DNA of 64,000 nt, taken from a virus (lineage: Duplodnaviria; Caudoviricetes). The DNA lies in IMG/VR virus record IMGVR_UViG_3300027563_000005, positions 1 through 64,000 of that record. One strand, given 5' to 3'. Every line of letters begins with the position of its first letter. Positions within the stretch are counted from its first letter, which is position 1. Below, one piece after another: positions 47,481 through 62,435 of the stretch. Made by a program: the position numbers and the translations under genes. The notes under the pieces were generated by a model. The model was not told the origin of the DNA and made no database searches. It saw only the letters and a list, made by a program, of their open reading frames with translations.

Positions 47481-47815
47481 TGTACTTTACCGCCTCTTGA
47501 TACAGAGTCCTTGTAAACCCCTATGTCGTATGGATCTGGGGGGAGTCCCCATCTAAGTCTTTGTTCTTGCTCTTCAAGCTCTTCGTTGTTAATTTTTCTG
47601 CGCCCTGAAAGGAATTTAGGTTGGCCCTCACGAATACCGTATGAGCGAACCTCTCTAGCCAAAGCATCGATTTTGGATCTATTGCCTTTGATTGCCGTGA
47701 TCGAAAGAAAATTGCCATCATCATCTCCAATCCATCTGCCATCAGGCATTTCCCAGACATATATGCCAAGGGTTGTCTCTTCGACAATTTTAGTGTTTTT
47801 CTTTAAGATATCCAT
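47477..47815 (-). CDS. hypothetical protein
   Basis: GIYVWEMPDG...; coupled to portal start. Confidence 0.75.
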   Translation of the reverse strand: MDILKKNTKIVEETTLGIYVWEMPDGRWIGDDDGNFLSITAIKGNRSKIDALAREVRSYGIREGQPKFLSGRRKINNEELEEQEQRLRWGLPPDPYDIGVYKDSVSRGGKVQ

Positions 47816-47877
47816 AGACCACAATCATACCATTATCTGAGACCAAAGTCCAGATTTATGCCATACCTTTGCAAATA

Positions 47878-49683: not shown

Positions 49684-49690
49684 CCCAAGC

Positions 49691-50839
49691 CTACTTTTCT
49701 TCTAGTGATTTTACTCTTGCCGTAAGCTCTTGTACCGCTTTAATTAAAGGAGAAATAAACTCTTCATATCTTAATGCTTGTTGGCCTTCTGGATCTGCAA
49801 TATCGGATATAACCCATCCACCAAAATCTGAAACATTTGCTTGATCTAAAACAGATTTAACCTGCTGGGCAATTAATCCGTAGTGAGTTCTATTTCCATC
49901 AATTTTATTATACTTTACTGGCTCAAGACTATTTATAAAAGATAGCCCAAGGTCAGAAGGCAAAATATTTTCTTTTGTTCTTTGATCTGATATAACAGTA
50001 GCTGCTGAATTTAAATATATATTTTTCCAGCCTCTTGTTACGTTATCTGGGCCAGAGTTTATTGGTCCAAGTAAACCTAAACTAAAGCTGTTAGTTACAA
50101 ACGGATACCAAGAAGAGTTAACACCAGTAGACGAAGTGGCCGTGGCTACCAATGAAATTCTTGTTGCAATTGGATCTATGCTAGGAGATGGGCCTGTTGC
50201 GCCTGTTGCGCCAGGAGCGCCAGCAGCGCCAGGAGCGCCATCTGCGCCTCTTGGAATAGTAAAGTTTAAAACAACATCATTAGCTGTTCCAGAATTTGTT
50301 ACTGCAGCTTGGGAACCAGCAGCAGCTGTTGTGACTGTCGGGGATATTGCAATTGTTGCCGCAGGAAATCCCTGTAAGCCTCTTTCGCCAGTATCTCCCT
50401 TAGCTCCGTTTGTCCCATTTGTTCCTGGGGTTCCAGGTTCGCCTTTGTCACCTTTGGGAAGTATTAGGTTTAAAATTTGTGACGGAGAGGATCCAGTAAT
50501 TGTTGCAGATGCGCTTAATCCTGAATCTACTGTTCCTATTGATAAAATATTAGAGGGTCCTGGTCCGCCTAAAATTCCGTCTTGACCTCTTGGTATATTA
50601 AATGTCAAAGATTGTGTAGGTGATGTTCCGCTAATTGTTACTGAGGCACTCTGTCCAGCATTAAGTGTATTTGTTGCGGCTACGCTTAGTGTATTGGATG
50701 GACCCGTTAGGCCTTGTGGTCCAGGATTTGCTGCAATAAAAGCAGCGATGTCTGTTCCTAAAATACCAAGATCTCTAGGTACGTCGGGTGAGTCCGAGTA
50801 ACTTGGGAAACGCCATCCATTAACGCCTACTGTTGCCAT
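49691..50839 (-). CDS. collagen-like fibre protein with C-terminal intramolecular chaperone (peptidase S74-like)
   Basis: Gly-X-Y runs (GDKGEPGTPGTNGTNGAKGDTGERGLQG), repeated LxFxIPRG, SDQRTKENI...HYGLIAQQV...LRYEEFISPLIKAVQEL. Confidence 0.85.
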   Translation of the reverse strand: MATVGVNGWRFPSYSDSPDVPRDLGILGTDIAAFIAANPGPQGLTGPSNTLSVAATNTLNAGQSASVTISGTSPTQSLTFNIPRGQDGILGGPGPSNILSIGTVDSGLSASATITGSSPSQILNLILPKGDKGEPGTPGTNGTNGAKGDTGERGLQGFPAATIAISPTVTTAAAGSQAAVTNSGTANDVVLNFTIPRGADGAPGAAGAPGATGATGPSPSIDPIATRISLVATATSSTGVNSSWYPFVTNSFSLGLLGPINSGPDNVTRGWKNIYLNSAATVISDQRTKENILPSDLGLSFINSLEPVKYNKIDGNRTHYGLIAQQVKSVLDQANVSDFGGWVISDIADPEGQQALRYEEFISPLIKAVQELTARVKSLEEK

Positions 50840-50845
50840 TTTTTA

Positions 50846-50854
50846 ATTATACCA
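50846..50854 (-). promoter_or_regulatory. extended -10 promoter, probably leaderless
   Basis: TGGTATAAT 6 nt before ATG at 50839. Confidence 0.65.
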
Positions 50855-50856
50855 CC

Positions 50857-51519
50857 TTAGATCTTATATGCAGATAAGTGTGAAGTATATCTTTCGCCAG
50901 ACACAACTTCTTTAACTTCATGAAGATACGGCTCTTGGCTTGGAAAAATAACAAGACTTCCTGGTGCTGGCTTTAACGATATGTTATGGTTTGGGAAGCT
51001 TATTTCTCCACCTTCATATTCATCGTTTATGTAAGTTATCATAGAAAATGCTAGGTCTGTGTCTCCGTCGTAGCTATCGCAATGTGGACCCATTGCAGAT
51101 CCTTTTACCCAGCGCCTTAATGGAATGCTTTGCATCTTAAGGCTATATGAATTCTTGTCTAGCTGGTGCGAAGCCAAATACATTTCAAAAGACATCTGTG
51201 CTGCCATTTCAAAACTGTTTTTAATATAAAGTATTTTTTGGTTTAGCTTTTCATCATCTGTTTTATTCAATACATTTTCTGTTAAAATATTTTTGTTGTT
51301 TCCATAAATAAGAGAGGCGTCATTGCTTGCTGTCCAGTCTTCCCACTTTGTAATTGCCTGGTGGCTTCTTTCGTCTGCATCCACAAGATGTATAAACTTT
51401 AATAGCTCTTCTGGGTAGCTTAAAACATTTTTAAAGTACCATATGTCTTTTTCAAGAATTTGTACGTCAAACATGTGATACATGTCGTTTGGGTTAAATG
51501 TTTCTTTTGATATTTCCAT
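50857..51519 (-). CDS. 2OG-Fe(II) oxygenase, prolyl-4-hydroxylase-like
   Basis: HCD, YINDEYEGGE, HEVKEVVSGERY. Confidence 0.9.
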   Translation of the reverse strand: MEISKETFNPNDMYHMFDVQILEKDIWYFKNVLSYPEELLKFIHLVDADERSHQAITKWEDWTASNDASLIYGNNKNILTENVLNKTDDEKLNQKILYIKNSFEMAAQMSFEMYLASHQLDKNSYSLKMQSIPLRRWVKGSAMGPHCDSYDGDTDLAFSMITYINDEYEGGEISFPNHNISLKPAPGSLVIFPSQEPYLHEVKEVVSGERYTSHLSAYKI

Positions 51520-52277
51520 TAAATATTCTCCACTTCAGACGCTGGGATATTATACCCATCGGGGGTTAATCTTAACCCTTTGTCACGAACTTTTTTCCAG
51601 TCTTCTTGTTCGCCTTTTTGCATTGCTCTAACTTCTGCTAATTCTTTTGCCCATTCGTCACGGACTTCTTGTGGGTAATCTGATTCTTCTCTGTCGTCCC
51701 AGAATGATCCAAGTGTATATCTTGGACTACCTTTTACTACTGTTACTTCGTGCATATTTTTATGCCCGCCGTGAAAAATTAAAAATGATCCAGCTTTTGG
51801 AACAATTTCCATTGGAAGGTTTCCGTGATCAGCGTCAAATTTTAATGTCCCTCCTTCAAAGTCATCATTCAGGTATAAGAATCCAGCATATCTACTTCTA
51901 GTAAATGCTCCCATCTTACCTTTATTGTCACTGTTGTCGGAATGCTTTGGGGCAAATGCTCCTGGCAACCATCTCTGCACGTGAAAACTTATTTTTGACA
52001 TATCTGAAACATTTTTATTTGCAACTTCAGATGCAGCTACTTTAAATTTTTCTTGTATGTCTGTAAACCAAGTATTTGATAAATTAAATTTTTCTAGTAT
52101 TGGCTCTCCATCGTAAGGATACCTAGCAGAATAAGATTCATAAAAAGAAATTCCTTTCCAGTAATCCTCATCAGTTTCCTCTAATTCTTTTAAAACATTA
52201 ATTACAGAAGTGCATTCCTCTGGTGTAATAAAACCTTCATATAAAAATATATCATCAGATAGCTTTATTAGATTCAT
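51519..52277 (-). CDS. 2OG-Fe(II) oxygenase, prolyl-4-hydroxylase-like
   Basis: HSD, YLNDDFEGG, HEVTVVKGSPRY. Confidence 0.9.
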   Translation of the reverse strand: MNLIKLSDDIFLYEGFITPEECTSVINVLKELEETDEDYWKGISFYESYSARYPYDGEPILEKFNLSNTWFTDIQEKFKVAASEVANKNVSDMSKISFHVQRWLPGAFAPKHSDNSDNKGKMGAFTRSRYAGFLYLNDDFEGGTLKFDADHGNLPMEIVPKAGSFLIFHGGHKNMHEVTVVKGSPRYTLGSFWDDREESDYPQEVRDEWAKELAEVRAMQKGEQEDWKKVRDKGLRLTPDGYNIPASEVENI

Positions 52278-53095
52278 TACATTGCACCAGGTCCCGATTT
52301 GTCTCCAACCAAATCGTCATACTCTACTGGCTTTCCGTCTTGCAAATATCTCATATTTCTTGCATCTTCAAAATCAATTCTTTTTGATTCTTTTTTCATC
52401 CAGTTGTATGCTCCAAAAGTAAGTTGGTTTTGTAGCCATTCTTTTGAGCCAGCATATCTGTGCATTACAAAGTTTCTAACAAAAAACTTTTCTCCATTGT
52501 AAATTGTTTTAACTCCATGAAAATATGGTTCGTCTGAAGGAAACACTAAAATGTCTCCAGCCTTTGGCTTGTGATTTACTATCTTGCCATCAACAACAAA
52601 CTCAATGTCTCCGCCGTCATAATCATCATTGATATACATTGTGCATGTAAGTAAGAATTTTGGTCCAGGCATTTCTCTTTGAGAAATAATATAGTCTGTG
52701 TGGTACTGCATTGTCATTTTGTTTTCTAAAACATCAACCTGGTCGTTATATTTTGAGAATGAGGATCCAGTAAAATACCAGTCTTCTGGTAGCTCAACTC
52801 CGTGTCTGGTGATGTAGTCACTTAAAACTAGGTCGTAGGCATCTTGAACCTGTTTAGCAAAATCTTTTTCTTCGATAAACATTGGGTCCTGATTGTCTTG
52901 ATTTATTTCAGCAGTATCTTTTATTTGTGTATATGTTCCAAAAGATGCCCACTTATCCCAATTTTTTAAATAATGCTTTCCTTCAGATGTTCTTTCTGAT
53001 TTTTTCATTGTTTCGTATAAAGCTTTTGGGTCACGCAAAACATTTCTGTATACATCTACTTTTGGGTATAACTCTACATATTCTAAATTACTCAT
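52277..53095 (-). CDS. 2OG-Fe(II) oxygenase, prolyl-4-hydroxylase-like
   Basis: HTD, YINDDYDGGD, HGVKTIYNGEK; probable start MSNLEY at 53095 (ATGA overlap). Confidence 0.9.
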   Translation of the reverse strand: MSNLEYVELYPKVDVYRNVLRDPKALYETMKKSERTSEGKHYLKNWDKWASFGTYTQIKDTAEINQDNQDPMFIEEKDFAKQVQDAYDLVLSDYITRHGVELPEDWYFTGSSFSKYNDQVDVLENKMTMQYHTDYIISQREMPGPKFLLTCTMYINDDYDGGDIEFVVDGKIVNHKPKAGDILVFPSDEPYFHGVKTIYNGEKFFVRNFVMHRYAGSKEWLQNQLTFGAYNWMKKESKRIDFEDARNMRYLQDGKPVEYDDLVGDKSGPGAM

Positions 53096-53781
53096 GGTTG
53101 CTTGTCTCCAGTATGCTTTTGTATTGTCCAAAAAAACGGCGATGTAAATCTATTACCAGATTTTACTGGGCGGACTCCGTGTGTATAAAACCTATCTCCT
53201 GGGAAGAAATAAGCAGCTCCTGCTTTTGGCTTAAACTCTATTCCGTGTTGCGGAAAATAAAGTTCTCCGCCTTCGTAATCATCATTAAAATAAAATAATC
53301 CCGATAAATCGTACCAAGGAAAATCATTTGCTCTTCCCTGTTCAATTCCTGTGTGGAATTCTTTATCAGCATGTGGCTCTTGTCTTGCACCTATTGGCCA
53401 CCTTACAATTGCTGGGCCAGTTTCTTTTGCATCAACATCAAAAAATTTGTCTACTTCAATTTTTAATCTTGCAATCATGCTATTTATTAACTCAAGAATT
53501 GTTGGGTCTGACGCCATGAGGGAATTGTATGTACATACCCTATCCTTCCAAATGTCGGCGTCGTATAAAACAAGACCATCTTCATCTGCATGGGTTTCTG
53601 TGTGGTCCCAAATTTTATTATTTAAAGCAAAACTAATAAGTCTTTCTCGCTCTTCTGTGGTTAAAAAATTCTCTAACTCTACGATGTTATCGGAAGAGTC
53701 TCCAAAAAAACCAGATGGAGTTATTGACTTGGGGGCGTTATGCTTATTCCAGTCGTTTGCTATTGCTTGATTATTATTCAT
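53092..53781 (-). CDS. 2OG-Fe(II) oxygenase, prolyl-4-hydroxylase-like
   Basis: HAD, YFNDDYEGGELYF, HGVRPVKSGNR. Confidence 0.9.
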   Translation of the reverse strand: MNNNQAIANDWNKHNAPKSITPSGFFGDSSDNIVELENFLTTEERERLISFALNNKIWDHTETHADEDGLVLYDADIWKDRVCTYNSLMASDPTILELINSMIARLKIEVDKFFDVDAKETGPAIVRWPIGARQEPHADKEFHTGIEQGRANDFPWYDLSGLFYFNDDYEGGELYFPQHGIEFKPKAGAAYFFPGDRFYTHGVRPVKSGNRFTSPFFWTIQKHTGDKQP

Positions 53782-53787
53782 ATTATT

Positions 53788-53796
53788 ATTATACCA
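53788..53796 (-). promoter_or_regulatory. extended -10 promoter, probably leaderless
   Basis: TGGTATAAT 6 nt before ATG at 53781. Confidence 0.65.
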
Positions 53797-53803
53797 TTTC
53801 TAT

Positions 53804-54514
53804 TTATTTACTAATATCACGAACATTTAGTATTATTTTTTTGGCCTGGTGGGACCCAAGAGAATTTCCTTTATGATCAACAGCATTTTTATATAGGCCA
53901 GCCCAATCCCCATCTTTTTGTCTTCTAGTAACATACTCGGTATATTCTGGATCGTTCTGTACTTCATCTAGGGGCAAATCCAATCCGTTGCTTATTATGG
54001 CAGTAGAGTGATTTATTTGTGCTAGATCTATTGGTAATACTGAAACTACTGGTGTGCCCGCTTTTATTGTTATTGGAACATCTTTTTTTGAAATTTTCCA
54101 CGCTGGGCTTAGCTGACCTTTTAAAAACGAAGCATTTAATAAAACTTCTAAAACATGAACTCCGTCTATAAATTGGTTTGGAACTCTTTTTACCCACAAG
54201 GTTAAATTCTCATCTGTTTTAAACATCAGCCCAGTGTTAAATGTAATTATATCATTTCTGCTATCAATGTATAGGTACTCTTCTCCAGAAATTACTTCTA
54301 TATATTTTTGCTGTGGTTTTGGATTTGAGTTGCAAATAAAAGTTATATCTTTTGGAAAAGATATTCCCCATCCAAGATTATTTACTAGGCCAAGCGGAAA
54401 ACATCTGTATGCGTGTTTTTCTGGCGTGTCGTCCATCCAGTCTCTTTTAGTTTCCAATGCAGTTAAATTTCCTAGGCTATCTGAAAGCCTATATACATTA
54501 AATTCAATTGGCAT
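53804..54514 (-). CDS. DUF6065-like protein
   Basis: KRDWMDDT...HAYRCFPL...N.LGW N-terminal signature; paralog of next gene. Confidence 0.7.
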   Translation of the reverse strand: MPIEFNVYRLSDSLGNLTALETKRDWMDDTPEKHAYRCFPLGLVNNLGWGISFPKDITFICNSNPKPQQKYIEVISGEEYLYIDSRNDIITFNTGLMFKTDENLTLWVKRVPNQFIDGVHVLEVLLNASFLKGQLSPAWKISKKDVPITIKAGTPVVSVLPIDLAQINHSTAIISNGLDLPLDEVQNDPEYTEYVTRRQKDGDWAGLYKNAVDHKGNSLGSHQAKKIILNVRDISK

Positions 54515-55214
54515 CTGTACCGCCCTTTAATCTTATTGATTTTAGTTGATGCTCTCCTATTTTGTTTCCAAGATTATCAACGGCGTCTCTGTAAAAATTT
54601 GACCATTCCCCAGACTGATTAATTTCTTCAAGCGCTATTGAATATGCTGGAGTAAGAAATTCTGTTTTTGGTACTTCATGAATATCTCGCAATTCCATTT
54701 CTGAATTTTGTAATTCCATTAAATTCATTGGTACGACTGATATTATTGGGGTATTAGCTTTTATTGTTATTTCTACATTTGGCCTTGTAATTCTCCAAGC
54801 ACATGGAAGGTCTCCCCTAAAAAATGATGTTGAAACAAGCGTTGTAAATGGAACAACACCATCAATAAATTGATTTGGCACTGGCATTGAAAGCAAAGTT
54901 TCTTCTGGGTCTGTGATAAACATCACTCCAGTACGAAAGCTTACAGTCGCATTTGCACGATCTGGATAGGCGTATTTTTCACCTTTAAGAATTTTTACAT
55001 GCTCTCCAGATGTATCAGAAATTCCGTCCCATATAAAAGTTATGTCTTCTGGGAAAGATACGCCCCAGCCAAGCTGATTAGTTAGGCTGACGGGGAAGCA
55101 TTTGTATGCATGAGCCTTCCAAGTATCATCCATCCAGTCTCTTTTAACAGACAGAGGAGATACGTTTGCAAGACCGTCTCTAGTTTTGTATACCTTTATG
55201 TTTTTCACGTTCAA
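54504..55214 (-). CDS. DUF6065-like protein
   Basis: KRDWMDDT...HAYKCFPV...NQLGW; C-terminal FYRDAVD. Confidence 0.7.
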   Translation of the reverse strand: MNVKNIKVYKTRDGLANVSPLSVKRDWMDDTWKAHAYKCFPVSLTNQLGWGVSFPEDITFIWDGISDTSGEHVKILKGEKYAYPDRANATVSFRTGVMFITDPEETLLSMPVPNQFIDGVVPFTTLVSTSFFRGDLPCAWRITRPNVEITIKANTPIISVVPMNLMELQNSEMELRDIHEVPKTEFLTPAYSIALEEINQSGEWSNFYRDAVDNLGNKIGEHQLKSIRLKGGTDAN

Positions 55215-55869
55215 CCCTTTCGGCTCTCATTTGCATAAACTCTTGGTTGTGTGCGTGATCATTATAATCAAGCATTGTTACAATTGAATATTTTCTACCA
55301 GAATTTACTGGTGCGGCTAAGTGAGAGAAGAGATAGGTTGATGGGAATATGTATAGGTCTCCAGCCTGTGGCTTAATGCTTAAGTTTAATTTTGGAAAAA
55401 CAAGTTCTCCGCCTTCATACTCATCGTTTGGGTAAGCAACTAAGGAAACGGTGGCGCTGTAAGAAAATCCATGGTCTGCATGCTCTTGAAAATGTTGTCC
55501 TGGACCATACTGAATAAAGTTCATTACTTCCCAGTAATTCATTCTAACGTTATATGCAGCACAATAATCTTCAACTGCTGGTATCTGTGCGTTGTAAGAG
55601 TCTTGCCAAATTGTAGCAAGTGTGGCTTGATCATCGTTTATTGGATTAGTAATTTCTCCAATTTTAAAATCTCTGCAGTCTCTATAGCTTGGCTTCTTTT
55701 CCATGTATCCTACTGTGGCGTCCTGCCATGACAAGCCACTTGAATTATTTTCTAGCAAGACACTTACTCTGTTCATGATGTCAAGCTCTGGGGTAAATAC
55801 GTTGCGGTATACCCACATGCCTGGAAATAGCATTTCTTTTGATGACCAATTTTGACTAATGTTACTCAT
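55180..55869 (-). CDS. 2OG-Fe(II) oxygenase, prolyl-4-hydroxylase-like
   Basis: YGPGQHFQEHAD, YPNDEYEGGEL, HLAAPVNSGRKY. Confidence 0.9.
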   Translation of the reverse strand: MSNISQNWSSKEMLFPGMWVYRNVFTPELDIMNRVSVLLENNSSGLSWQDATVGYMEKKPSYRDCRDFKIGEITNPINDDQATLATIWQDSYNAQIPAVEDYCAAYNVRMNYWEVMNFIQYGPGQHFQEHADHGFSYSATVSLVAYPNDEYEGGELVFPKLNLSIKPQAGDLYIFPSTYLFSHLAAPVNSGRKYSIVTMLDYNDHAHNQEFMQMRAERVEREKHKGIQN

Positions 55870-56466
55870 TTATTCTCCTAGTTTAGTATAGTTTAACATA
55901 TCATCAGGTAGTATGTCAATAATTAAATGGGTTCTGTCTTCACTGCTTTTATTGCTAACGGCATGCGGTAGCATATTATTTATTTCGTAGATACCAAACT
56001 CTTCCATATGAATGGTATTATTAAAGACCGTAAAGGTAACGTCTTTATTAGTAATGATTGGGATGTGGACTCTCCTAGAAAAATTTAATAGGGGGCCTGC
56101 ATCAACATGCTTATGAACTTCTGAATTTGCGTGTAGCTTAATTATCTCACATCTAATTACTTTTCCGCAATAGCGTTCTTCCAGATAATTAAAAAGTTTA
56201 TCTAATTCTTCTTGGGCTTCTTTTGTTTTTAGAGAATTTTCATAAGTTGTAACAATCTCTAGGTCTGGGGTCCATTCGTATGGGGTTGAGCATATTCTAA
56301 ACATTTCTGTATTTGTGTGAACAAGTCCATGATTTTGTCTTGTAGTATTTAAAAGCCACTCATCAGAAAAATTAGAAACTTCTGCTTTTATCATTTTTAT
56401 ATCACAAAAGCCTAAATGTTTAATTGACCATTTGGTATCTTTTTTTATTCTTTGATACATACTCAT
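55870..56466 (-). CDS. aspartyl/asparaginyl beta-hydroxylase-like 2OG oxygenase
   Basis: HKHVD, RVHIPIITN, EINNMLPHAVSN...RTHLIID. Confidence 0.85.
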   Translation of the reverse strand: MSMYQRIKKDTKWSIKHLGFCDIKMIKAEVSNFSDEWLLNTTRQNHGLVHTNTEMFRICSTPYEWTPDLEIVTTYENSLKTKEAQEELDKLFNYLEERYCGKVIRCEIIKLHANSEVHKHVDAGPLLNFSRRVHIPIITNKDVTFTVFNNTIHMEEFGIYEINNMLPHAVSNKSSEDRTHLIIDILPDDMLNYTKLGE

Positions 56467-57142
56467 ACACCTCCATGTCCATTTTATTTAAATCTTCTAT
56501 TTTACTTATTTGAGATTTTGTTAAATTTAACTCTAGCCCTGGGGATCTATTTGCTGGGTCTGACCTGTGTTTAAACGACTCAAAACCAAAATTATTTTTT
56601 AATGCCTTATTTAAATCTTCTTTAAACAAGGATATATCCTCAAGTGTATAATAGTAAAAATTTTGTAAATTGTCAATTGCTTTTTGAGGCCCGCCCTCTA
56701 TTCCTTCCAAGTACCACCCGCTATCAATAGTATGCTGAAAATAATTAAAGTGTTTATTAAACTGATCAATGTTTGTTTTTCCAATTAAAAATTTAGTCTG
56801 AAGGTTTGACTGCATTTCGGACTGTTCTCCATATAGCCAGCTCTCAAGCTTTTCTTCAGATTCTTTGCCCGCCCTTATTAAACCAGTTGTATATTTAAAA
56901 TAGCTTACAAATCTATCTACTGGATTTCTTATTATTGTAAATACTTCTGGGTTGTTCATATAATCTAAGGGCATGGTTCCAAAATGTCCGCCAACAAATA
57001 AACTTTTATTTATAACAGATGGTTCTATTATTGTTCTATTTGAAACAAAATGTGAAACCCCACCAGTAATTAGGTGGGGCAGCACATGATTCTTTATATG
57101 TATTCCAGCAGTGCGTGGGATATGTAGGTGGTAAATAGACAT
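56420..57142 (-). CDS. sulfotransferase-family protein
   Basis: HIPRTAG (5'-phosphosulfate loop-like), GH, RNPVDRFVSYF (3'-phosphate-binding-like), terminal NKMDMEVYEY. Confidence 0.8.
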   Translation of the reverse strand: MSIYHLHIPRTAGIHIKNHVLPHLITGGVSHFVSNRTIIEPSVINKSLFVGGHFGTMPLDYMNNPEVFTIIRNPVDRFVSYFKYTTGLIRAGKESEEKLESWLYGEQSEMQSNLQTKFLIGKTNIDQFNKHFNYFQHTIDSGWYLEGIEGGPQKAIDNLQNFYYYTLEDISLFKEDLNKALKNNFGFESFKHRSDPANRSPGLELNLTKSQISKIEDLNKMDMEVYEYVSKNKKRYQMVN

Positions 57143-58624
57143 TTATGCAAAATATTTTCTATTATGTACTACTAATCCTCCCGCTATTAAAATGTCATTA
57201 GGAGCTGCATCGAACTCATAAACATTTCTGTTTTCATCGATAATTTGAATTTCATTTACTAGAATAGAAGAGAAAGATCCATCTTCATTTCTAGAAATTA
57301 CTTCGTCTCCTGGCTCTAAAATTCCAGTTACTCCAAAGAAATATGTGTTATTTCTTTTCACAAGAATTGTTTGTTCTAGAGAGAATCTGTGAGCAGGGTT
57401 ACCGTTAATACATAGTGTAACTTCTTTAACAGAAGGAATTATGTTTGTTATAACAGTTGGAACAATTGCTAGATTGTTTAGTTCTGAGCTGGACCATGTG
57501 TAAGGGTCTACTGAGAATTCGCTATCTAGTCCGTCCCAAGTTACACCCCAAACATTATCTCCAATTTGAACATCTGAAGCTTTTTTGTATTCTATTGTAT
57601 TGTTTTCTCCGATTATTGTAATCAGTGTATCTTGATCAATACAGAAACCTGGAGGTGAGAAGAATCCTGGAGGTGAGAAGAACCCTGGAGGTGAGAAGAA
57701 TCCTGGAGGTGAGAAGAACCCTGGAGGTGAGAAGAACCCTGGAGGTGAGAAGAACCCTGGAGGGCTAAAGAAGTTTGGTGGCGCAAAGAAGCCTGGTGGG
57801 CTAAAGAACGACGGTGGGCTAAAGAACGCTGGTGGCGAGAAGAAGCCTGGTGGGCTAAAGAACGCTGGTGGCGAGAAGAACGCTGGTGGCGAGAAGAAGC
57901 CTGGTGGGCTAAAGAACGCTGGTGGCGAGAAGAACGCTGGTGGCGAGAAGAATGAAGGTGGCGAGAAGAAGCCTGGTGGGCTAAAGAACGCTGGTGGGAA
58001 GAACGGCGGGAAGAACGGGGCTAGAGTTGTTACAGAATTTGAACTTCCAGAGTAAGCAGAATTTTGATTTCCGTTTACAGCAAGTACTTGATATGTCTGT
58101 GCAGTATTTGCTGTTTCTGGTACAGTGTATGAAGTTCCAGTTGTTGAATAAGTTGGTCCATCAGAAGACTTAAGTATGTAACCAGTTACAGATGAGCCTC
58201 CATTATTTTCTGGTGCTGACCATGTAACATAGTCTTGATTTGTTTGCGCTGTTGCTACTGGAGCCGCTGGTGTTGAGGTAACTGTTGTTACTGTAACTGA
58301 ATTAGATGCGGCAGAAGGAAGGGATGTTCCGTTATCATTACTTGCTGTTACTGTTATGGTTGGCGTAGCGCCTACACCAAAACCTGTAATTGTTATTGGT
58401 GAGGCTGACCCTGTTGCTGTGTGTATTGTGTTGTGAACGCTACAAAAGCCAGAAGCCGTAAATGATGTTGCAGCATTTCTGTCGTCTGGGGTAAATGTTA
58501 TTGTAACTGCGCCGTTGTTGTACGGACGATTAGTTCCAACATTTGTTGCTGTACCAATAATTGGTGCATATGGTGCCAGGAAGTCATTAGCTCCCTGGCT
58601 CATTCTACCTGCTTGTTTTGACAT
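57143..58624 (-). CDS. FN3-domain protein with (xFFSPP)19 repeat and C-terminal Hint domain
   Basis: Two FN3-like units (VTWSAPENNGGSSVTGY, YQVLAVN), Pro/Phe repeat, then CIDQDTLI ... LEPGDEV ... VYEF ... LVVHN and tail RKYFA. Confidence 0.85.
   Translation of the reverse strand: MSKQAGRMSQGANDFLAPYAPIIGTATNVGTNRPYNNGAVTITFTPDDRNAATSFTASGFCSVHNTIHTATGSASPITITGFGVGATPTITVTASNDNGTSLPSAASNSVTVTTVTSTPAAPVATAQTNQDYVTWSAPENNGGSSVTGYILKSSDGPTYSTTGTSYTVPETANTAQTYQVLAVNGNQNSAYSGSSNSVTTLAPFFPPFFPPAFFSPPGFFSPPSFFSPPAFFSPPAFFSPPGFFSPPAFFSPPAFFSPPGFFSPPAFFSPPSFFSPPGFFAPPNFFSPPGFFSPPGFFSPPGFFSPPGFFSPPGFFSPPGFFSPPGFCIDQDTLITIIGENNTIEYKKASDVQIGDNVWGVTWDGLDSEFSVDPYTWSSSELNNLAIVPTVITNIIPSVKEVTLCINGNPAHRFSLEQTILVKRNNTYFFGVTGILEPGDEVISRNEDGSFSSILVNEIQIIDENRNVYEFDAAPNDILIAGGLVVHNRKYFA
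57161..57643 (-). other. Hint (intein-like) autoprocessing domain, 161 aa, no homing endonuclease
   Basis: Begins with Cys (CIDQDTLI), ends with His-Asn (LVVHN); +1 residue is Arg. Confidence 0.85.
57650..57991 (-). repeat. 19 x 18-bp coding tandem repeat encoding (A/G/S/N)FF(S/A)PP
   Basis: Counted directly; preceded by APFFPPFFPP (57992-58021); synonymous variation between units. Confidence 0.95.
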
Positions 58625-58648
58625 TTATATATTCTCCCTTAATCCGAA

Positions 58649-61600
58649 TTACGCTGAAAGGTCTCCAAAGACCAACCATCCGCTTGATATTTTCATTGCT
58701 GTTACAACTGAGTTAGTTGTTCTAAACTTAAGTCCTGGTGTTCCAACGACTCCATTAGTTGTTTCAAAACGTGCTCCTGTGGATGATGCCTGGTGGAAGT
58801 CGATTGACTGTCCAGTTACGTATCCTGTTGCTGGTAGAGTAATTACTACTGCTCCAGTTAGTGGTATAAACTGATCTGCCCGATCCGCTCCAATTGTAAC
58901 TGCTCCTGCTGCTAATGCAGTTGGAATGTTAGTAATAGAAGGGACGCCAGCCTTAGTCTGTGTACCGTCTGTAAAGACTACGCCAGATGCTGCAACTGTT
59001 ACTGCTCCAGTAAATGTTGGTGAAGCAATTGGAGCGAATCCTGCAATACTTGCGCCTGCTGGGATTGTAACTGTTCCTGTAAATGTAGGAGACTCAATGC
59101 CTGCTACTGTAGAGTAGTTTGTTCCATCATTTGTAAATTCCCATTTATCAGTAGACTCATTCCAGCGAACCTGAACTGCGTTTAAGTCTCCACGAACAAC
59201 TCTTATTCCTGAGTTTTCTGTTGGAGTACCAGTAGTAAAGTTGCTGTTTAAGTCAATAATATTATCGGCTAAAGAAATTGTTTCTGTGTTAATGCTTGTA
59301 GTTGTTCCGCTTACTGTTAAGTTTCCACCAACAACAAGGTTTCCATTTACTTCTGCATTATCATTAAGGTAAACTTTTCCTGTACCGTTTCCAGATAATG
59401 ATAGGTCTGTATTTAGTGTCTTGCTTGTAACGCTATCAGTTTTTACTCCATTGCTAAAGGCAATTCCATTACCGTCTGCGCTTGAGAAGTTGGCCCCTGC
59501 TTCAACTACTAGAGGTCCCTTGATATTAACAGAGCCAGTTCCTGTTGGATCTAGTTCAATGTTACCGCTTCCGCTTGTTCTTAGGCCAAGGTTTTCATCA
59601 ATGTCGGCAGAAACAACAATTGCTCCTGATTCATCTTGAATAACCTTCTGACCGTTAACGTATAGTGATCCTGGACCTACGTAAATATCTTTCCACATCT
59701 TTGTAGGAGAACCTAAGTCAAATGTGTTGTCAGTTGCAGGAACTATGCTTCCACCTGCAGTAACTGTTGGCAAAACTACAGTTCCTGTAAATGTTGGTGA
59801 TGCAAGTGGTGCTTTAAGATTGTCATTTGTAATAGTTGCATAAGTTGTGGCAGCTGTTGCGCTAGCAAGGTAGGTTGAAGATGCTGTACCTATCGCTAGC
59901 TTTGAATCTAATTGTGTTTGTATTGCTGAAGTTACACCATCAACATATCCAATTTCATCTGCTGAAACGTTTCCGATTGATGTAGTTGCTGGCAATACTA
60001 CTGTGCCAGTAAATGTAGGTGCTGCTGATGGGGCTTTTGCTGCAAGGTTTGAAACCAAGTCTGTAATTTTAGACTGATCAATAAATCCTGCAAGCATTAC
60101 GTTTGTAATTCCACCAGTGTTAGTTTTTACTATTGCCTCTCCAGCAATTTTTAGTGGAGAAATTTCTGCTGTGTCGCTAATATCTAAATTAGATATTGCT
60201 CCGTTTGCAATTTTTTCTGAAGTTACTGCATTATCCGCTAGTTCGCTTGTTCCTACAGAAGATGCTGCGATCTTTGCTGCTGTTACTGAATCATCGGCTA
60301 GCTTTAAAGTTGTTATTGTTAATTCTGCAATCTTTGCTGCTGTTACTGCGTTATCGGCTATCTCGCTGGTTCCTACAGCAGATGCTGCGATCTGTGCTGC
60401 TGTTACTGAATCATCGGCTAGCTTTGAACTTGTTACTGAATCGTCAGCCAACTTTGCGGTTGTTACTGCAAGATCTGCAACCTTTAACGTTGTTACTGAG
60501 TCATTAGATAATTTTTGATTTGTTACTGCTGCGTCGTCAATCTTTAAAGTTGTTACTGCGTCGTCGGCTAGTTTTAAAGTTGTTACTCCTTGGTTTGCAA
60601 TCTTTGCGGTTTCCACTGCAAGGTCTGCTAGCTTTGTAGCTCCAACAGCACCATTTGCAATTTTTGCTGAATTGACTGCTAGGTCTTCAATTTTACTTGG
60701 AGTGACTGCTGCGTCTGCAATCTTTGTTGCAATAACTGCTGCGTCTGCAATCTTTGTAGTTATTACTGAACCAGAAACAATTGCTCTAGATCCTACTGAG
60801 CTTACGTTCATCATTGGTTCTGTAACTGCAGAGTCAGGCAAAGTTACTGTTCCTGTAAATGTTGGACTAATAATAGGAGCTTTTAGGTCTATTTGTCCGT
60901 ATACCTGAGATATGTTTGCTGCATCGTATTTTGAATTAAGTTGTGTTTGTATGGCTGAAGTAACTCCATTTAATGTCTGAAGTTCAGCATTTGAAACATC
61001 TCCAATTGATGCACGGTCTGCAAATAGTCCTCCGAGTTGAAGGTCGTCTTTTGTGTATGTTGTAAAGTCTACTACTGTTGTAGGCTCTGCGGTAACACCA
61101 GAAAATAGTTTCCATCTTCCGCCATCAGATGCATCACGAACAAGACCAGAATGCTGGTATGTTCCGTCATTAAATGCTGCAACGACTCCAAGGTCAAGTG
61201 CGTTTGATTGGTTGCCATCTCCAATATAAATCATTGGATCGTCTATTGTTACATTTGTAGAATTTACTGTAGTGCTAGTTCCATTAACTGTCAGGTTGCC
61301 TGAAATGGTTACGTTATTAGCTGTGAGGCCTGTTGCAACATCTAGGTTAATTGCATTAAGTGTGGTGGCATTTACTGTTCCAGAAAAATTTGGAGAATTT
61401 GAAACTGCTATATCTAGGTATCCGCCTGCATCGTCATAAGTTTTAACAATGTTTGTGCCAGCAGTAATTTCAGCGGCTACAACATCTTGAATTGTTTCTG
61501 TTATGTCTAGCTCTGATGCTGGAACTTTACCGCTGCTGTTAAGTGATGCTACTCCAAGCGCTGTGCCGCGATCAGAAAGTGGTATAAATCCATCGTCAAC

Positions 61601-61948
61601 TGTATTTGATAATGCCAGTACGGTTTCCTGTACGTAATTTTTAGTTGCAATAATGCTTGAATCGACATTTATTGTAATGGTATTAGATCCATCGTTATAT
61701 GTCTTTGTTAGTCCCGCTCCCATTGTAAGTGCGGTGTTAATTGCGTCTTGGGAAATTTCACCAATCGCTACATCTGAATTATTTGCATATGCAAGGGCGG
61801 TCCAGGTAGAAGATCCGTTACCGAACTTAAATAGGTTTGAGTCTGACTCTACACCCATTTCTCCTGCTGCCAAAATTGGATTTACTGAGGTCCATTGTGA
61901 AGCTGTACCTCTTCTTACTTGAATTCTTACTGTTGACATATTTGCCAC
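58649..61948 (-). CDS. long fibre protein with Mtd-like N-terminal domain and 10-aa repeats
   Basis: IQVRRGTASQWTSVNPILAAGEMGVE N-terminus; (A/S)VTxxK(I/L)ADx repeats; recurrent SPTFTGTV motifs. Confidence 0.8.
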   Translation of the reverse strand: MANMSTVRIQVRRGTASQWTSVNPILAAGEMGVESDSNLFKFGNGSSTWTALAYANNSDVAIGEISQDAINTALTMGAGLTKTYNDGSNTITINVDSSIIATKNYVQETVLALSNTVDDGFIPLSDRGTALGVASLNSSGKVPASELDITETIQDVVAAEITAGTNIVKTYDDAGGYLDIAVSNSPNFSGTVNATTLNAINLDVATGLTANNVTISGNLTVNGTSTTVNSTNVTIDDPMIYIGDGNQSNALDLGVVAAFNDGTYQHSGLVRDASDGGRWKLFSGVTAEPTTVVDFTTYTKDDLQLGGLFADRASIGDVSNAELQTLNGVTSAIQTQLNSKYDAANISQVYGQIDLKAPIISPTFTGTVTLPDSAVTEPMMNVSSVGSRAIVSGSVITTKIADAAVIATKIADAAVTPSKIEDLAVNSAKIANGAVGATKLADLAVETAKIANQGVTTLKLADDAVTTLKIDDAAVTNQKLSNDSVTTLKVADLAVTTAKLADDSVTSSKLADDSVTAAQIAASAVGTSEIADNAVTAAKIAELTITTLKLADDSVTAAKIAASSVGTSELADNAVTSEKIANGAISNLDISDTAEISPLKIAGEAIVKTNTGGITNVMLAGFIDQSKITDLVSNLAAKAPSAAPTFTGTVVLPATTSIGNVSADEIGYVDGVTSAIQTQLDSKLAIGTASSTYLASATAATTYATITNDNLKAPLASPTFTGTVVLPTVTAGGSIVPATDNTFDLGSPTKMWKDIYVGPGSLYVNGQKVIQDESGAIVVSADIDENLGLRTSGSGNIELDPTGTGSVNIKGPLVVEAGANFSSADGNGIAFSNGVKTDSVTSKTLNTDLSLSGNGTGKVYLNDNAEVNGNLVVGGNLTVSGTTTSINTETISLADNIIDLNSNFTTGTPTENSGIRVVRGDLNAVQVRWNESTDKWEFTNDGTNYSTVAGIESPTFTGTVTIPAGASIAGFAPIASPTFTGAVTVAASGVVFTDGTQTKAGVPSITNIPTALAAGAVTIGADRADQFIPLTGAVVITLPATGYVTGQSIDFHQASSTGARFETTNGVVGTPGLKFRTTNSVVTAMKISSGWLVFGDLSA
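60190..60790 (-). repeat. degenerate 30-bp / 10-aa coding repeats (AVTTAKIADx)
   Basis: Roughly 20 consecutive decapeptide units visible in translation. Confidence 0.85.
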
Positions 61949-62000
61949 CCCTTGTTTAGATTTATTTGTTAATTATAGCACTACAATAATTCCAAAACAA

Positions 62001-62372: not shown

Positions 62373-62435
62373 TTAAGTTCACATATCCCCTAATGTTTTG
62401 GTGGGGTTTTGAAAGGACCCCATACCTTTTATTAA

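What the first reader, a model, noticed from the sequence alone, without database searches (positions are those of the whole stretch)
50857..58624. Candidate phage-encoded protein-modification system: FN3-(xFFSPP)19-Hint substrate followed by nine tailoring-enzyme genes
Seen: a gene for two FN3 domains, 19 tandem xFFSPP units and a C-terminal Hint domain is followed with zero gap or overlaps by a sulfotransferase-like gene, an Asp/Asn beta-hydroxylase-like gene, a P4H-like oxygenase, two DUF6065-like genes and four more P4H-like oxygenases, all inside the virion fibre block. Known: prolyl 4-hydroxylases and AspH act on peptide residues, sulfotransferases transfer sulfate from PAPS to hydroxyls, Hint domains self-cleave via a thioester, and Ser-Pro-Pro repeats are the hydroxylated motif of plant extensins. 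Inference: the layout is that of a precursor plus tailoring enzymes (RiPP-like logic), in which the repeat is hydroxylated on Pro (perhaps also Phe), possibly sulfated, and released or ligated by the Hint domain to give a chemically decorated virion appendage or a set of modified peptides. Such oxygenases are usually written off as auxiliary metabolic genes; here a plausible dedicated substrate sits at the head of the operon.
Basis: partly seen in the sequence, partly recalled or inferred. Interest (0 to 1): 0.92.

Follow-up and report, generated by a model that had tools for sequence, protein, structure and literature searches.

The report
Phage fibre protein with tailoring-enzyme cassette
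An uncultured phage encodes a virion-block protein with a Phe/Pro-rich repeat and a self-cleaving Hint domain, followed by a run of prolyl-hydroxylase-like genes, a layout that suggests, but does not prove, that the phage chemically modifies its own appendage.

Summary
The gene at 57143-58624 (- strand) encodes FN3-like domains, 19 xFFSPP units plus 2 FFPP units, and a C-terminal Hint domain. The Hint domain was confirmed by a profile search of solved structures and by predicted fold; it is of the bacterial-intein-like type and is not a splicing intein. Nine tightly packed genes follow: a sulfotransferase, an AspH-like gene, five 2OG oxygenases whose nearest solved relatives are prolyl 4- and 3-hydroxylases, and two DUF6065 genes.

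The gene belongs to a large, unnamed family of uncultured phages: 358 proteins and about 140 viral loci. In that family the repeat comes in three types, and the downstream enzyme set differs with the type. Of 49 distinct Pro-Pro-type proteins with at least 5 kb downstream, 46 are followed by 5-8 oxygenases. All 13 GAF-type proteins are followed by none. All 11 FSPF-type proteins are followed by 1-2.

On a portal tree, however, the Pro-Pro/oxygenase link is a single evolutionary event, so linkage or shared ancestry is not excluded. Relatives also carry a GT60-type polypeptide GlcNAc-transferase-like gene beside other Pro-rich repeat/Hint proteins.

Against the reading: DUF6065 folds like a dUTPase, the same genomic interval holds a ribonucleotide reductase in the sister clade, and nothing biochemical is known. 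"RiPP-like" is not apt; modification of a structural protein is the better model. My confidence in that model is about 0.5.

The parts
57143..58624 (-). REP: 493-aa protein made of a conserved N-terminus, FN3-like domains, an (xFFSPP)19 repeat, a Hint domain and an RKYFA tail.
   Evidence: ORF. 358 homologues, all named 'hypothetical protein' or unnamed. Found at a conserved position after the Mtd_N fibre in 63 + 79 viral loci.
58019..58624 (-). REP residues 1-202: conserved N-terminal segment and two FN3-like domains.
   Evidence: phmmer hits to titin FN3, 3e-21. PF00041 is precomputed on most homologues. Direct Pfam scans of this protein give no fn3 hit.
57644..58018 (-). REP residues 203-327: 2 FFPP units plus 19 xFF[S/A]PP units.
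   Evidence: Tandem Repeats Finder, 18 nt x 19.4 copies. Unit list and codon analysis.
57161..57643 (-). REP residues 328-488: Hint (bacterial intein-like) domain, running from Cys328 to His487-Asn488.
   Evidence: Profile versus PDB: 2lwy at 4.9e-8. AlphaFold2 pLDDT 92. Foldseek: BIL2, inteins, Hedgehog. Residue table.
57146..57160 (-). Five-residue tail RKYFA after the Hint Asn. There is no Cys/Ser/Thr at the +1 position.
   Evidence: Translation. Tails of the form HN-x-K-x-F occur only in loci that also carry the sulfotransferase/AspH pair.
56420..57142 (-). Sulfotransferase-like gene.
   Evidence: Pfam Sulfotransfer_2, 1.7e-7, 32.1 bits against a cut-off of 22. PHROG 3347.
55870..56466 (-). 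Asp/Asn beta-hydroxylase-like gene.
   Evidence: Pfam Asp_Arg_Hydrox, 1.7e-11.
55180..55869 (-). 2OG-Fe(II) oxygenase OXY1, P4H-like.
   Evidence: Pfam 2OG-FeII_Oxy_3, 2.2e-13. Best solved relative is B. anthracis prolyl 4-hydroxylase 3itq/5hv0 at 2e-8. H126/H130/D132/H183 are invariant in 13 orthologues.
54504..55214 (-). DUF6065 protein a.
   Evidence: Pfam DUF6065, 9.7e-31. AlphaFold2 pLDDT 85. Foldseek top hits are all dUTPases, E ~1e-4.
53804..54514 (-). DUF6065 protein b.
   Evidence: Pfam DUF6065, 2.8e-28.
53092..53781 (-). 2OG-Fe(II) oxygenase OXY2.
   Evidence: Pfam 2OG-FeII_Oxy_3, 5.2e-9.
52277..53131 (-). 2OG-Fe(II) oxygenase OXY3.
   Evidence: Pfam 2OG-FeII_Oxy_3, 1.1e-8.
51519..52277 (-). 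2OG-Fe(II) oxygenase OXY4, P3H-like.
   Evidence: Pfam 2OG-FeII_Oxy_3, 1.5e-10. Best solved relative is human prolyl 3-hydroxylase 1, 8k0e, at 4.9e-5.
50857..51519 (-). 2OG-Fe(II) oxygenase OXY5.
   Evidence: Pfam 2OG-FeII_Oxy_3, 1.2e-11.
49691..50839 (-). Context: collagen-like fibre with a Peptidase_S74 chaperone domain, a possible alternative hydroxylase substrate.
   Evidence: Pfam Peptidase_S74, 6.7e-12; Collagen, 3e-5, below the cut-off.
58649..61948 (-). Context: 1099-aa fibre with an Mtd_N N-terminus, always the gene upstream of REP.
   Evidence: Pfam Mtd_N, 1.2e-12. Synteny.

Best explanation
REP is a late, virion-block protein. It has a conserved N-terminal body and FN3-like domains, carries a ~125-residue Phe/Pro-rich low-complexity stalk, and ends in a bacterial-intein-like Hint domain.

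Proposed mechanism:
- The co-transcribed P4H/P3H-like 2OG oxygenases hydroxylate prolines of the (xFFSPP)n stalk, and possibly other residues, during assembly. This would be a structural-protein modification of the collagen/extensin kind, not a RiPP pathway.
- The Hint domain then processes the C-terminus. An N-S acyl shift at Phe327-Cys328 would give a thioester that is hydrolysed or passed to a nucleophile. Cyclisation of Asn488 would free the RKYFA tail.
- The roles of the sulfotransferase, the AspH-like enzyme and the two DUF6065 proteins are open. The sulfotransferase/AspH pair tracks the Hint subtype rather than the repeat.

Shown: the gene identities, the Hint fold, the operon-like packing, and the family-wide pairing of repeat type with enzyme set.

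Inferred: that the enzymes act on REP at all, which residues they modify, that the Hint is active, and that REP is in the virion.
For: 1. Packing. The ten genes are on one strand with 0-22 nt gaps or overlaps, inside a block of fibre genes just upstream of portal, protease and capsid.

2. Enzyme type. The nearest solved relatives of OXY1 and OXY4 are peptidyl-prolyl hydroxylases. The HxD...H residues are kept in 107-110 of 112 family members.

3. Family-wide pairing. Counts are of distinct REP sequences with at least 5 kb downstream:
- Pro-Pro type, 49 sequences: 46 are followed by 5-8 Oxy_3 genes, 2 by 3 (contig end or fragmented ORFs), and 1 by 0. The last is a second, upstream PPx6-Hint protein whose next gene belongs to the PF11397 glycosyltransferase-like family (phmmer 2.5e-223 to the 394-aa L120 protein, which scores 2.3e-41 in Pfam).
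- GAF type: 13 of 13 are followed by 0 Oxy_3 genes.
- FSPF type: 11 of 11 are followed by 1-2 Oxy_3 genes, and 10 of 11 by the separate u.10 family.

4. The Hint domain lies between the repeat and the enzymes yet varies independently of both. It occurs as Cys/HN, Cys/YN or Ser/[HYF]D forms, or is absent, and each form occurs within the Pro-Pro type. The repeat-enzyme pairing therefore survives shuffling of the intervening module.

5. L038 has the clade-A architecture (short UP1, COLL, LamG) but an FGFTP repeat, together with the u.28/u.3/u.10/u.29 enzyme set of clade-B FSPF phages. L064 is in clade A by its portal and lacks both REP and the cluster.

6. Relatives carry a PF11397 gene beside other Pro-rich repeat proteins (VTP/TPTAP or FFAPP, with or without Hint) and a P4H-like gene. 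A paper passage annotates PF11397 as GT60 (PMC6418280). The family of the Skp1 Hyp-GlcNAc transferase is my recollection. One clade-A locus, L100, has such a gene inside the REP-oxygenase cluster (1.1e-15).

7. The repeat is conserved at the peptide level.
Against: 1. Ancestry. On the portal tree (42 rows, 30 different) all Pro-Pro-type phages form one deep clade. Pro-Pro type versus 5 or more oxygenases gives only 1 independent pair on supported branches. FSPF versus GAF gives 3 pairs, all in the expected direction, with sign-test p 0.25. Adjacent genes also co-vary by linkage alone.

2. The REP-to-portal interval is a mixed cargo site. In clade B it holds a class II ribonucleotide reductase and a 1249-aa protein with no Pfam hit.

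3. DUF6065 has a dUTPase-like predicted fold. Its distant relatives (u.3, hhalign probability 89) sit next to the reductase, so they may serve nucleotide metabolism.

4. A sixth Oxy_3 gene lies in the replication module at 5124-6092, so these oxygenases are not tied to REP alone.

5. The sulfotransferase does not follow the Ser content of the repeat.

6. The window's Hint has Gln where block B normally has His (S-L-E-Q), so N-terminal cleavage is uncertain.

7. Precedent for caution: the chlorovirus PBCV-1 P4H has been known since 1999, yet passages of PMC7019647 say that its role is unknown and that hydroxyproline was not detected in virion proteins.
Confidence: 0.5

Rival explanations
1. The oxygenase/DUF6065/sulfotransferase run is an accessory gene island that acts on something other than REP, such as host proteins, small metabolites or nucleotides. 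It sits next to REP only because the junction between the fibre and head modules is a permissive insertion site that is inherited as a block.
For: - The same interval holds a class II ribonucleotide reductase in the sister clade.
- DUF6065 folds like a dUTPase.
- PHROGs files the oxygenases under 'moron, auxiliary metabolic gene'.
- A sixth Oxy_3 gene lies in the replication module.
- The Pro-Pro/oxygenase link is a single event on the portal tree.
Against: - The enzyme set changes with the repeat type in every contrast available: 3 of 3 within clade B, plus L038 and L064.
- The pairing persists across an independently varying Hint module.
- The nearest solved relatives of the oxygenases are protein prolyl hydroxylases.
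- GT60-type polypeptide glycosyltransferase-like genes accompany other Pro-rich repeat proteins in relatives.
Confidence: 0.28
2. The hydroxylases modify other virion fibres rather than, or as well as, REP. The obvious candidates are the collagen-like fibres: 49691-50839, and a 792-aa collagen-like fibre upstream at L153:5123-7501.
For: - The collagen-like/S74 fibre follows the last oxygenase after a 17-nt gap.
- OXY1's best solved relative is the B. anthracis P4H. That enzyme acts on collagen-like peptides (recalled).
- A second long Gly-X-Y fibre lies upstream.
Against: - The collagen-like gene is absent from most Pro-Pro-type loci that still carry 5-8 oxygenases, for example L004-L015, L017 and L026/27.
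- It is present in L038, which has only 2 oxygenases.
- Most Pro residues in the Gly-X-Y runs stand in the X position rather than the Y position (read; the site rule is recalled).
Confidence: 0.12
3. A true RiPP-like pathway: the repeat is a concatenated precursor from which small modified peptides are released, the RKYFA tail among them.
For: - The Hint Asn488 could release a 5-residue tail.
- The sulfotransferase/AspH pair occurs only with Hint tails of the form HN-x-K-x-F, in 4 lineages: the window group, L016, L128 and L141.
Against: - There is no leader/core organisation, no recognition element and no protease between units.
- REP has a conserved multidomain N-terminal body and a fixed place among the fibre genes.
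- The sulfotransferase abuts the Hint 3' end, so linkage explains the association.
Confidence: 0.03

Closest known systems
Chlorovirus PBCV-1 prolyl 4-hydroxylase and viral proline-rich repeat proteins (Eriksson et al. 1999, cited through passages of PMC7019647)
   Same: A virus-encoded P4H-type 2OG oxygenase, together with virus-encoded Pro-rich repeats as candidate substrates.
   Different: - PBCV-1 is a eukaryotic giant virus with one enzyme that is not adjacent to a substrate gene.
- Here a phage has five paralogues packed directly behind one repeat gene, plus AspH-like, sulfotransferase and DUF6065 genes and a Hint domain.
- In PBCV-1 the role is still unknown, and no Hyp was found in virions (passage seen).
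Bacillus anthracis P4H (PDB 3itq, 5hv0) with collagen-like surface proteins
   Same: It is the best solved sequence relative of OXY1 (2e-8), and it is a bacterial-type monomeric P4H.
   Different: - The target here would be xFFSPP, which does not have Gly at every third residue.
- There are several paralogues, and the setting is a phage. The enzyme's collagen-like substrate is recalled, not checked.
Hydroxyproline-rich glycoproteins and the Skp1 PhyA-Gnt1 pathway (passages of PMC3515798)
   Same: The logic is Pro hydroxylation of a protein followed by sugar addition. Relatives of this phage pair a P4H-like gene with a PF11397/GT60-like gene next to VTP/TPTAP or FFAPP repeat proteins.
   Different: - No PF11397 gene was found in the held 76 kb of this genome.
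- The repeat has only Pro-Pro, not the Ser-Pro(3-5) of extensins.
- That PF11397 includes the Hyp-GlcNAc transferase is recalled. Only the GT60 label was seen in print (PMC6418280).
Bacterial intein-like (BIL) domains, the Tetrahymena BUBL BIL2 domain, and the Hedgehog C-terminal autoprocessing domain
   Same: The Hint fold, a Cys at position 1, a C-terminal His-Asn, no +1 nucleophile and no endonuclease insert. These fit autoprocessing or transfer rather than splicing.
   Different: - The domain sits at the C-terminus of a phage fibre-block protein, directly after a low-complexity repeat. This is seen directly in 37 of 40 distinct Hint ORFs, and for 2 more by near-identity to the window.
- The window copy lacks the block-B His.
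C-terminal intramolecular chaperone of phage fibres and endosialidases (Peptidase_S74)
   Same: A self-cleaving C-terminal module on a phage fibre. One is present two modules downstream, at 49691-50839.
   Different: The fold and chemistry are unrelated. This is a functional analogy only, and it is inferred.
RiPP biosynthetic clusters
   Same: A ribosomal substrate gene heads a run of tailoring-enzyme genes.
   Different: The substrate is a 493-aa multidomain protein with a conserved structural body. There is no leader peptide or recognition element, and no evidence that small peptides are released.

Membership tests
Hint superfamily (intein / BIL / Hedgehog) | Hint fold | tested here: met
   The AlphaFold2 model has pLDDT 92. 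Foldseek against PDB gives BIL2 6y75 at 1.5e-7 and 47 matches at E<=0.001; those listed are inteins, BIL and Hedgehog domains. The profile hits 2lwy at 4.9e-8.
Hint superfamily (intein / BIL / Hedgehog) | Cys/Ser nucleophile at position 1 | tested here: met
   Cys328 in the window. Cys or Ser in 78 of 78 distinct family Hint domains.
Hint superfamily (intein / BIL / Hedgehog) | Block B Thr-x-x-His | tested here: not met
   The window has S-L-E-Q. His is present in other family members, for example T-L-E-H in L019/L020. The motif definition is recalled.
Splicing intein | C-terminal His-Asn followed by a Cys/Ser/Thr +1 residue and a C-extein | tested here: not met
   His-Asn is present, but it is followed by R-K-Y-F-A and the stop codon. 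This is therefore not a splicing intein. It is BIL-like.
Prolyl 4-hydroxylase-type 2OG-Fe(II) oxygenase (PF13640) | Pfam model above the gathering score | tested here: met
   Five genes score 36.4-51.4 bits against a cut-off of 27.
Prolyl 4-hydroxylase-type 2OG-Fe(II) oxygenase (PF13640) | His-x-Asp...His iron triad | tested here: met
   H130, D132 and H183 are kept in 110, 107 and 109 of 112 family members. H130, D132 and H183 are invariant in 13 OXY1 orthologues.
Prolyl 4-hydroxylase-type 2OG-Fe(II) oxygenase (PF13640) | Hydroxylation of peptidyl proline | not testable with these tools
   Only the nearest solved relatives are known: P4H at 2e-8 and P3H1 at 4.9e-5. The co-fold gave no verdict.
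Fibronectin type III domain | Match to an FN3 model or to solved FN3 domains | tested here: inconclusive
   Direct Pfam scans give no fn3 hit. phmmer against PDB hits titin FN3 at 3e-21 for the whole sequence, with single stretches at 8e-4 to 0.02. PF00041 is precomputed on most homologues.
RiPP precursor/tailoring cluster | Short precursor with leader and core, a recognition element, and proteolytic release of a small product | tested here: not met
   The substrate is a 493-aa multidomain protein with a conserved N-terminal body. No protease or recognition-element family was found among the nine genes.
Collagen / extensin-type repeat | Gly at every third residue (collagen), or Ser-Pro(3-5) (extensin) | tested here: not met
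   The units are x-F-F-S/A-P-P, where x is G, A, S or N. The definitions are recalled.
Sulfotransferase (PF03567) | Pfam model above the gathering score | tested here: met
   32.1 bits against a cut-off of 22. The acceptor is unknown.
DUF6065 (PF19541) | Pfam model above the gathering score | tested here: met
   107.5 and 99.5 bits against a cut-off of 26.6. The predicted fold is closest to dUTPases, but there is no sequence-level match to solved dUTPases.
GT60 / PF11397 polypeptide GlcNAc-transferase | Presence in this genome | tested here: not met
   There is no match in the 76-kb record, but the control genomes did not ring either, so the search is weak. The family is present in relatives.

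The most novel reading that the evidence does not exclude
A widespread group of uncultured phages builds an extensin- or mucin-like appendage on its virion. The appendage would be hydroxyproline-rich, glycosylated in some lineages and perhaps sulfated in this one.

It would be made by a dedicated multi-oxygenase cassette whose composition is matched to the sequence of a Phe/Pro-rich repeat. A bacterial-intein-like Hint domain would then use its thioester to shed itself, or to ligate the modified stalk covalently to another virion protein or to the host envelope.
Probability: 0.3. Interest if true: 0.9.

Novelty: new variant of a known kind. Interest (0 to 1): 0.75.

Why it matters
2OG oxygenases are among the commonest unexplained genes in aquatic phage genomes and are usually filed as auxiliary metabolic genes. 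Here they come with a concrete, testable substrate candidate, and with a family of about 140 loci in which repeat type and enzyme set can be compared.

If the model is right, three things would follow:
- It would show enzymatic post-translational chemistry (Pro hydroxylation, perhaps glycosylation or sulfation) on phage virion proteins.
- It would give a function to DUF6065 and to several unnamed families.
- It would add a new biological role for Hint/BIL domains, namely maturation or ligation of phage fibres.

It would also supply compact hydroxylases and a self-processing repeat scaffold of interest to protein engineers.

Tried and rejected
Searches that found nothing:
- megablast of the region and tblastn of REP against 50,697 deposited phage records gave no match, so no cultured relative carries REP.
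- Single-sequence searches for the Hint domain failed: Pfam Intein_splicing at E 0.078 and no PDB hit. Only the 29-sequence profile and the fold succeeded.
- NCBIfam gave nothing useful for REP, Hint, DUF6065, the AspH-like gene or the sulfotransferase.
- The promoter/terminator scan of 47500-62500 gave no more sites than shuffled sequence.
- Literature searches found no description of this arrangement: DUF6065 in 0 papers; phage/P4H/tail fibre; bacterial intein-like + phage; freshwater actinophage/oxygenase; hydroxyproline/bacteriophage; Hint domain/tail fibre. The one phage hit was an ordinary terminase intein.

Tests that gave no support or no answer:
- Complex prediction of OXY1 (13-row alignment) with REP residues 205-264 returned 'no answer'. 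The score was 0.00 in both runs and the controls were not run. I count this neither for nor against binding.
- The idea that the sulfotransferase tracks Ser in the repeat was rejected. Loci with the sulfotransferase have Ser fractions of 0.90, 0.57 and 0.36, while loci without it range from 0 to 1.0.
- The idea that the collagen-like fibre is the main substrate was rejected as the sole explanation, because that fibre is absent from most Pro-Pro loci.
- The idea that DUF6065 is an oxygenase was rejected. It has no HxD...H motif, and its fold is dUTPase-like.
- hhalign found no link between the u.10 family and either the Oxy_3 or the DUF6065 families. The Atlas feature search points u.10 to 2OG-FeII_Oxy_5 (score 0.97). 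That is a lead only, and Pfam found nothing.
- The u.3 profile against solved structures gave no dUTPase match at sequence level.

Scope limits:
- The genome-contig scan with DUF6065 found only 3 short MAG contigs, all of the same phage type.
- Rows dropped before the counts: of 99 distinct REP-type sequences, 73 were counted. They have at least 5 kb downstream and count as the main REP gene (a fibre gene just upstream, or the conserved N-terminus). The other 26 were left out.
- The second viral scan kept 80 of 144 relatives. The other 64 were not seen.

Full report
WHAT IS THERE

The window belongs to a 76-kb viral record judged 71% complete. Almost all of its genes are on the - strand.

At 57143-58624 lies a 493-aa ORF. 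Nine ORFs follow it on the same strand, with gaps of 0-22 nt or overlaps of 1-47 nt. Pfam places them above its curated cut-offs, in transcription order, as follows:
- Sulfotransfer_2.
- Asp_Arg_Hydrox.
- 2OG-FeII_Oxy_3.
- DUF6065, twice.
- 2OG-FeII_Oxy_3, four times.

The block sits among fibre genes:
- Upstream are an Mtd_N-headed 1099-aa fibre and, beyond the window, further fibres, one of which is a 792-aa collagen-like fibre.
- Downstream are a collagen-like fibre with a Peptidase_S74 domain, a LamG protein, then portal, prohead protease and capsid.

THE REPEAT PROTEIN (REP)

The repeat:
- Tandem Repeats Finder reports an 18-nt unit in 19.4 copies.
- The protein has two FFPP units and then 19 x-F-F-S/A-P-P units.
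- The Phe and Pro codons of the units differ only at third positions, and Ser is written with two unrelated codon families. Selection therefore acts on the peptide, and the array is not a fresh slippage product.

The FN3 part:
- Pfam finds neither fn3 nor Hint on this protein.
- The FN3 reading rests on phmmer hits to titin FN3 domains and on PF00041 being on record for most of the homologues.

The C-terminal 168 residues gave nothing as a single sequence. An alignment of 29 family C-domains (A1) gave three results:
- It hits the solved bacterial intein-like domain 2lwy at 4.9e-8, and phage and archaeal inteins.
- It folds with pLDDT 92.
- The model's best structural matches are the BIL2 domain of Tetrahymena, mini-inteins and the Hedgehog autoprocessing domain.

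The catalytic positions of the window copy are as follows:
- It begins with Cys328 and ends His487-Asn488, followed by R-K-Y-F-A and the stop codon.
- It has no +1 nucleophile, so it is not a splicing intein.
- It has Gln where block B usually has His.
- Across 78 distinct Hint domains of the family, position 1 is always Cys or Ser. Block B and the C-terminal dipeptide fall into a few subtypes.

THE ENZYMES

- The nearest solved relative of the first oxygenase is the Bacillus anthracis prolyl 4-hydroxylase (2e-8).
- The nearest solved relative of the fourth is human prolyl 3-hydroxylase 1 (4.9e-5).
- The iron-binding His-x-Asp...His residues are kept in 107-110 of 112 family members.
- DUF6065, modelled from 30 sequences (pLDDT 85), resembles dUTPases in fold (E about 1e-4). 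It has no oxygenase triad and no sequence-level match to solved dUTPases.
- The Atlas clusters of DUF6065 are almost all viral, and no paper in the library mentions the family.

THE FAMILY

REP is not an orphan:
- The protein search gave 358 relatives, all unnamed or 'hypothetical'.
- Two scans of the viral contig collection gave 63 and 79 loci.
- No deposited phage genome has it.
- The portal is about 55% identical to those of large Streptomyces siphophages.
- Three MAG contigs that carry the same cluster are all titled as Bacteroidota bins. The host is open.

I called ORFs in all loci, annotated them with the window's proteins and with family profiles, and clustered the rest. REP always follows the Mtd_N fibre. 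Its N-terminal body is conserved, but its low-complexity segment comes in three types: xFF[S/A]PP, FSPFGVFG-like and GAFGAF.

The genes that follow differ by type. Counts are of distinct REP sequences with at least 5 kb downstream:
- Pro-Pro type, 49 sequences. 46 are followed by 5-8 Oxy_3 genes and 2 by 3 (truncated or fragmented contigs). One is followed by none: it is a second, upstream Pro-Pro/Hint protein whose own neighbour is a PF11397-like glycosyltransferase gene. DUF6065 proper is present in 48 of the 49.
- GAF type, 13 sequences. None has an Oxy_3 gene. All 13 have one distant DUF6065 relative (family u.3; hhalign probability 89), lying just before a class II ribonucleotide reductase.
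- FSPF type, 11 sequences. All have 1-2 Oxy_3 genes. 10 have another small family, u.10, with conserved HDH...GHPH motifs. A language-model search places u.10 near 2OG-FeII_Oxy_5. That is a lead only, and Pfam finds nothing.

HOW MUCH DOES THE PAIRING PROVE?

A portal tree (42 rows, 30 different) splits the phages into two deep clades. All Pro-Pro types are in one clade and all FSPF and GAF types are in the other. Pro-Pro type versus 5 or more oxygenases is therefore one independent contrast. Within the second clade there are three FSPF/GAF contrasts. All three go the expected way, but three cannot reach significance. Neighbouring genes also travel together.

Three observations go beyond plain linkage:
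- The Hint module lies between the repeat and the enzymes, yet it varies independently of both. It occurs as Cys/HN, Cys/YN or Ser/[HYF]D forms, or is absent, all within the Pro-Pro type. The window's Hint is closest to that of an FSPF-type phage of the other clade.
- L038 has the gene architecture of the window's clade but an FGFTP repeat, together with the enzyme set of the other clade's FSPF phages.
- L064 is in the window's clade by its portal and lacks both REP and the cassette.

A SECOND, RELATED MODULE IN RELATIVES

The Hint profile finds further proteins in which a Hint domain follows a different low-complexity repeat (PVVPP, AVTPEVTP, FFAPP, TIATIN) on different N-terminal bodies.

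Several of these proteins, and Cys-rich proteins with VTP or TPTAP linkers, are followed within a few genes by a set of small genes:
- a small DUF6171 protein;
- a P4H-like oxygenase;
- in about half of the distinct gene strings, a 289-402-aa protein of Pfam family PF11397 'Glycosyltransferase (GlcNAc)'.

Six of these PF11397 proteins were checked in Pfam (1e-15 to 2e-41); the others rest on similarity to them. A paper passage equates PF11397 with glycosyltransferase family 60 (PMC6418280). That this family holds the hydroxyproline-GlcNAc transferase of the Skp1 pathway is my recollection. The pathway itself (PhyA, then Gnt1) is described in passages of PMC3515798.

One clade-A locus, L100, has such a gene inside the REP-oxygenase cluster. 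The held part of the window's own genome has none (a weak search). Its counterpart of the 'second protein' lacks both the repeat and the Hint domain.

READING

The best-supported model is modification of a structural protein. REP would be a fibre-block protein whose Phe/Pro-rich stalk is hydroxylated by the adjacent prolyl-hydroxylase-like enzymes, and whose C-terminal Hint domain processes the end of the stalk. I put this at about 0.5.

The main rival (0.28) is an accessory island that shares an insertion site with REP. In its favour:
- the ribonucleotide reductase in the same interval in the sister clade;
- the dUTPase-like fold of DUF6065;
- a sixth Oxy_3 gene in the replication module;
- the single-event phylogeny.

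A third reading (0.12) makes the collagen-like fibres the substrate. Most Pro-Pro loci lack that fibre.

The RiPP reading (0.03) fails the defining features. Its only hint is that the sulfotransferase/AspH pair occurs exactly with Hint tails of the form HN-x-K-x-F, in four lineages. Linkage explains that equally well. The sulfotransferase shows no relation to the Ser content of the repeat.

The chlorovirus precedent is a warning. Its P4H has been known for decades, yet its role is still unknown and no hydroxyproline was found in virions (passages of PMC7019647).

NOVELTY AND LIMITS

Each part is of a known kind: P4H-type oxygenases, BIL/Hint autoprocessing, and Pro-rich repeat proteins. The combination is not described in anything my searches reached. 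That combination is a Hint-terminated Phe/Pro repeat on a phage fibre-block protein, heading a cassette of five prolyl-hydroxylase-like paralogues, with family-wide matching of repeat type and enzyme set.

The following limits apply:
- No biochemical or expression evidence exists.
- The enzyme-peptide co-fold gave no verdict.
- Motif definitions for inteins, sulfotransferases, GT60 and collagen/extensin sites are recalled, not taken from a call.

Noticed in passing
window 5124-6092 (- strand): A sixth 2OG-FeII_Oxy_3 gene (322 aa, 3.2e-12) lies far from the cluster, in the replication module. Its neighbours look like a recombinase/ATPase and a DNA polymerase III alpha subunit; I read this from the translations only.
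   Followed up: partly
L108, L120, L121, L125, L142 (394-aa gene after a PPx6-Hint protein); L023:1199-2152, L044:2141-3097, L056:1989-2921, L048:1932-3137; L100:9042-10046: PF11397 'Glycosyltransferase (GlcNAc)' (GT60-like) genes sit next to Pro-rich repeat proteins and P4H-like genes in relatives. In some of them the gene is fused to a DUF6171-like N-terminus. None was found in the window's own 76 kb.
   Followed up: partly
L016, L019, L020, L022, L030, L034, L035, L038-L042, L048, L052 (family u.10, ~200-235 aa): An unnamed family with conserved HDH...HGYY...GHPH...R-x-T-x-AYD motifs accompanies FSPF-type repeat proteins. Pfam finds nothing, and the Atlas feature search points to 2OG-FeII_Oxy_5.
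   Followed up: partly
window 56420-57142 and 55870-56466; L016, L128, L141: The sulfotransferase/AspH-like pair occurs only where the Hint domain ends ...VVHN-x-K-x-F. This holds in four lineages, across both the Pro-Pro and the FSPF repeat types.
   Followed up: partly
L143, L144, L145: Three short MAG contigs carry the same oxygenase/DUF6065 cluster, and all three have record titles naming Bacteroidota bins. The portal, in contrast, is ~55% identical to those of large Streptomyces phages. The host is unresolved.
   Followed up: no
L064: A phage of the window's portal clade has three FN3 + Gly-rich proteins where REP would be, and no oxygenase cassette at all.
   Followed up: no
window 26768-38644 (- strand): A single 3958-aa ORF. 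I did not examine it.
   Followed up: no
L153:5123-7501 and L153:10311-12245 (record bases 67022-69400 and 72210-74144): Beyond the window lie a 792-aa fibre with a long Gly-X-Y collagen-like run and a 644-aa ORF that resembles the class II ribonucleotide reductase of the relatives. I judged the latter from its translation and length only.
   Followed up: no
L035:2329-3640: The REP homologue is split into two overlapping ORFs (252 and 262 aa). This is either a frameshift or an assembly error inside the repeat.
   Followed up: no
L017, L038, L097, L101-L104, L144 (family u.32): A short-chain dehydrogenase (adh_short, 4.5e-39 in L038) sits inside some of the oxygenase clusters.
   Followed up: no
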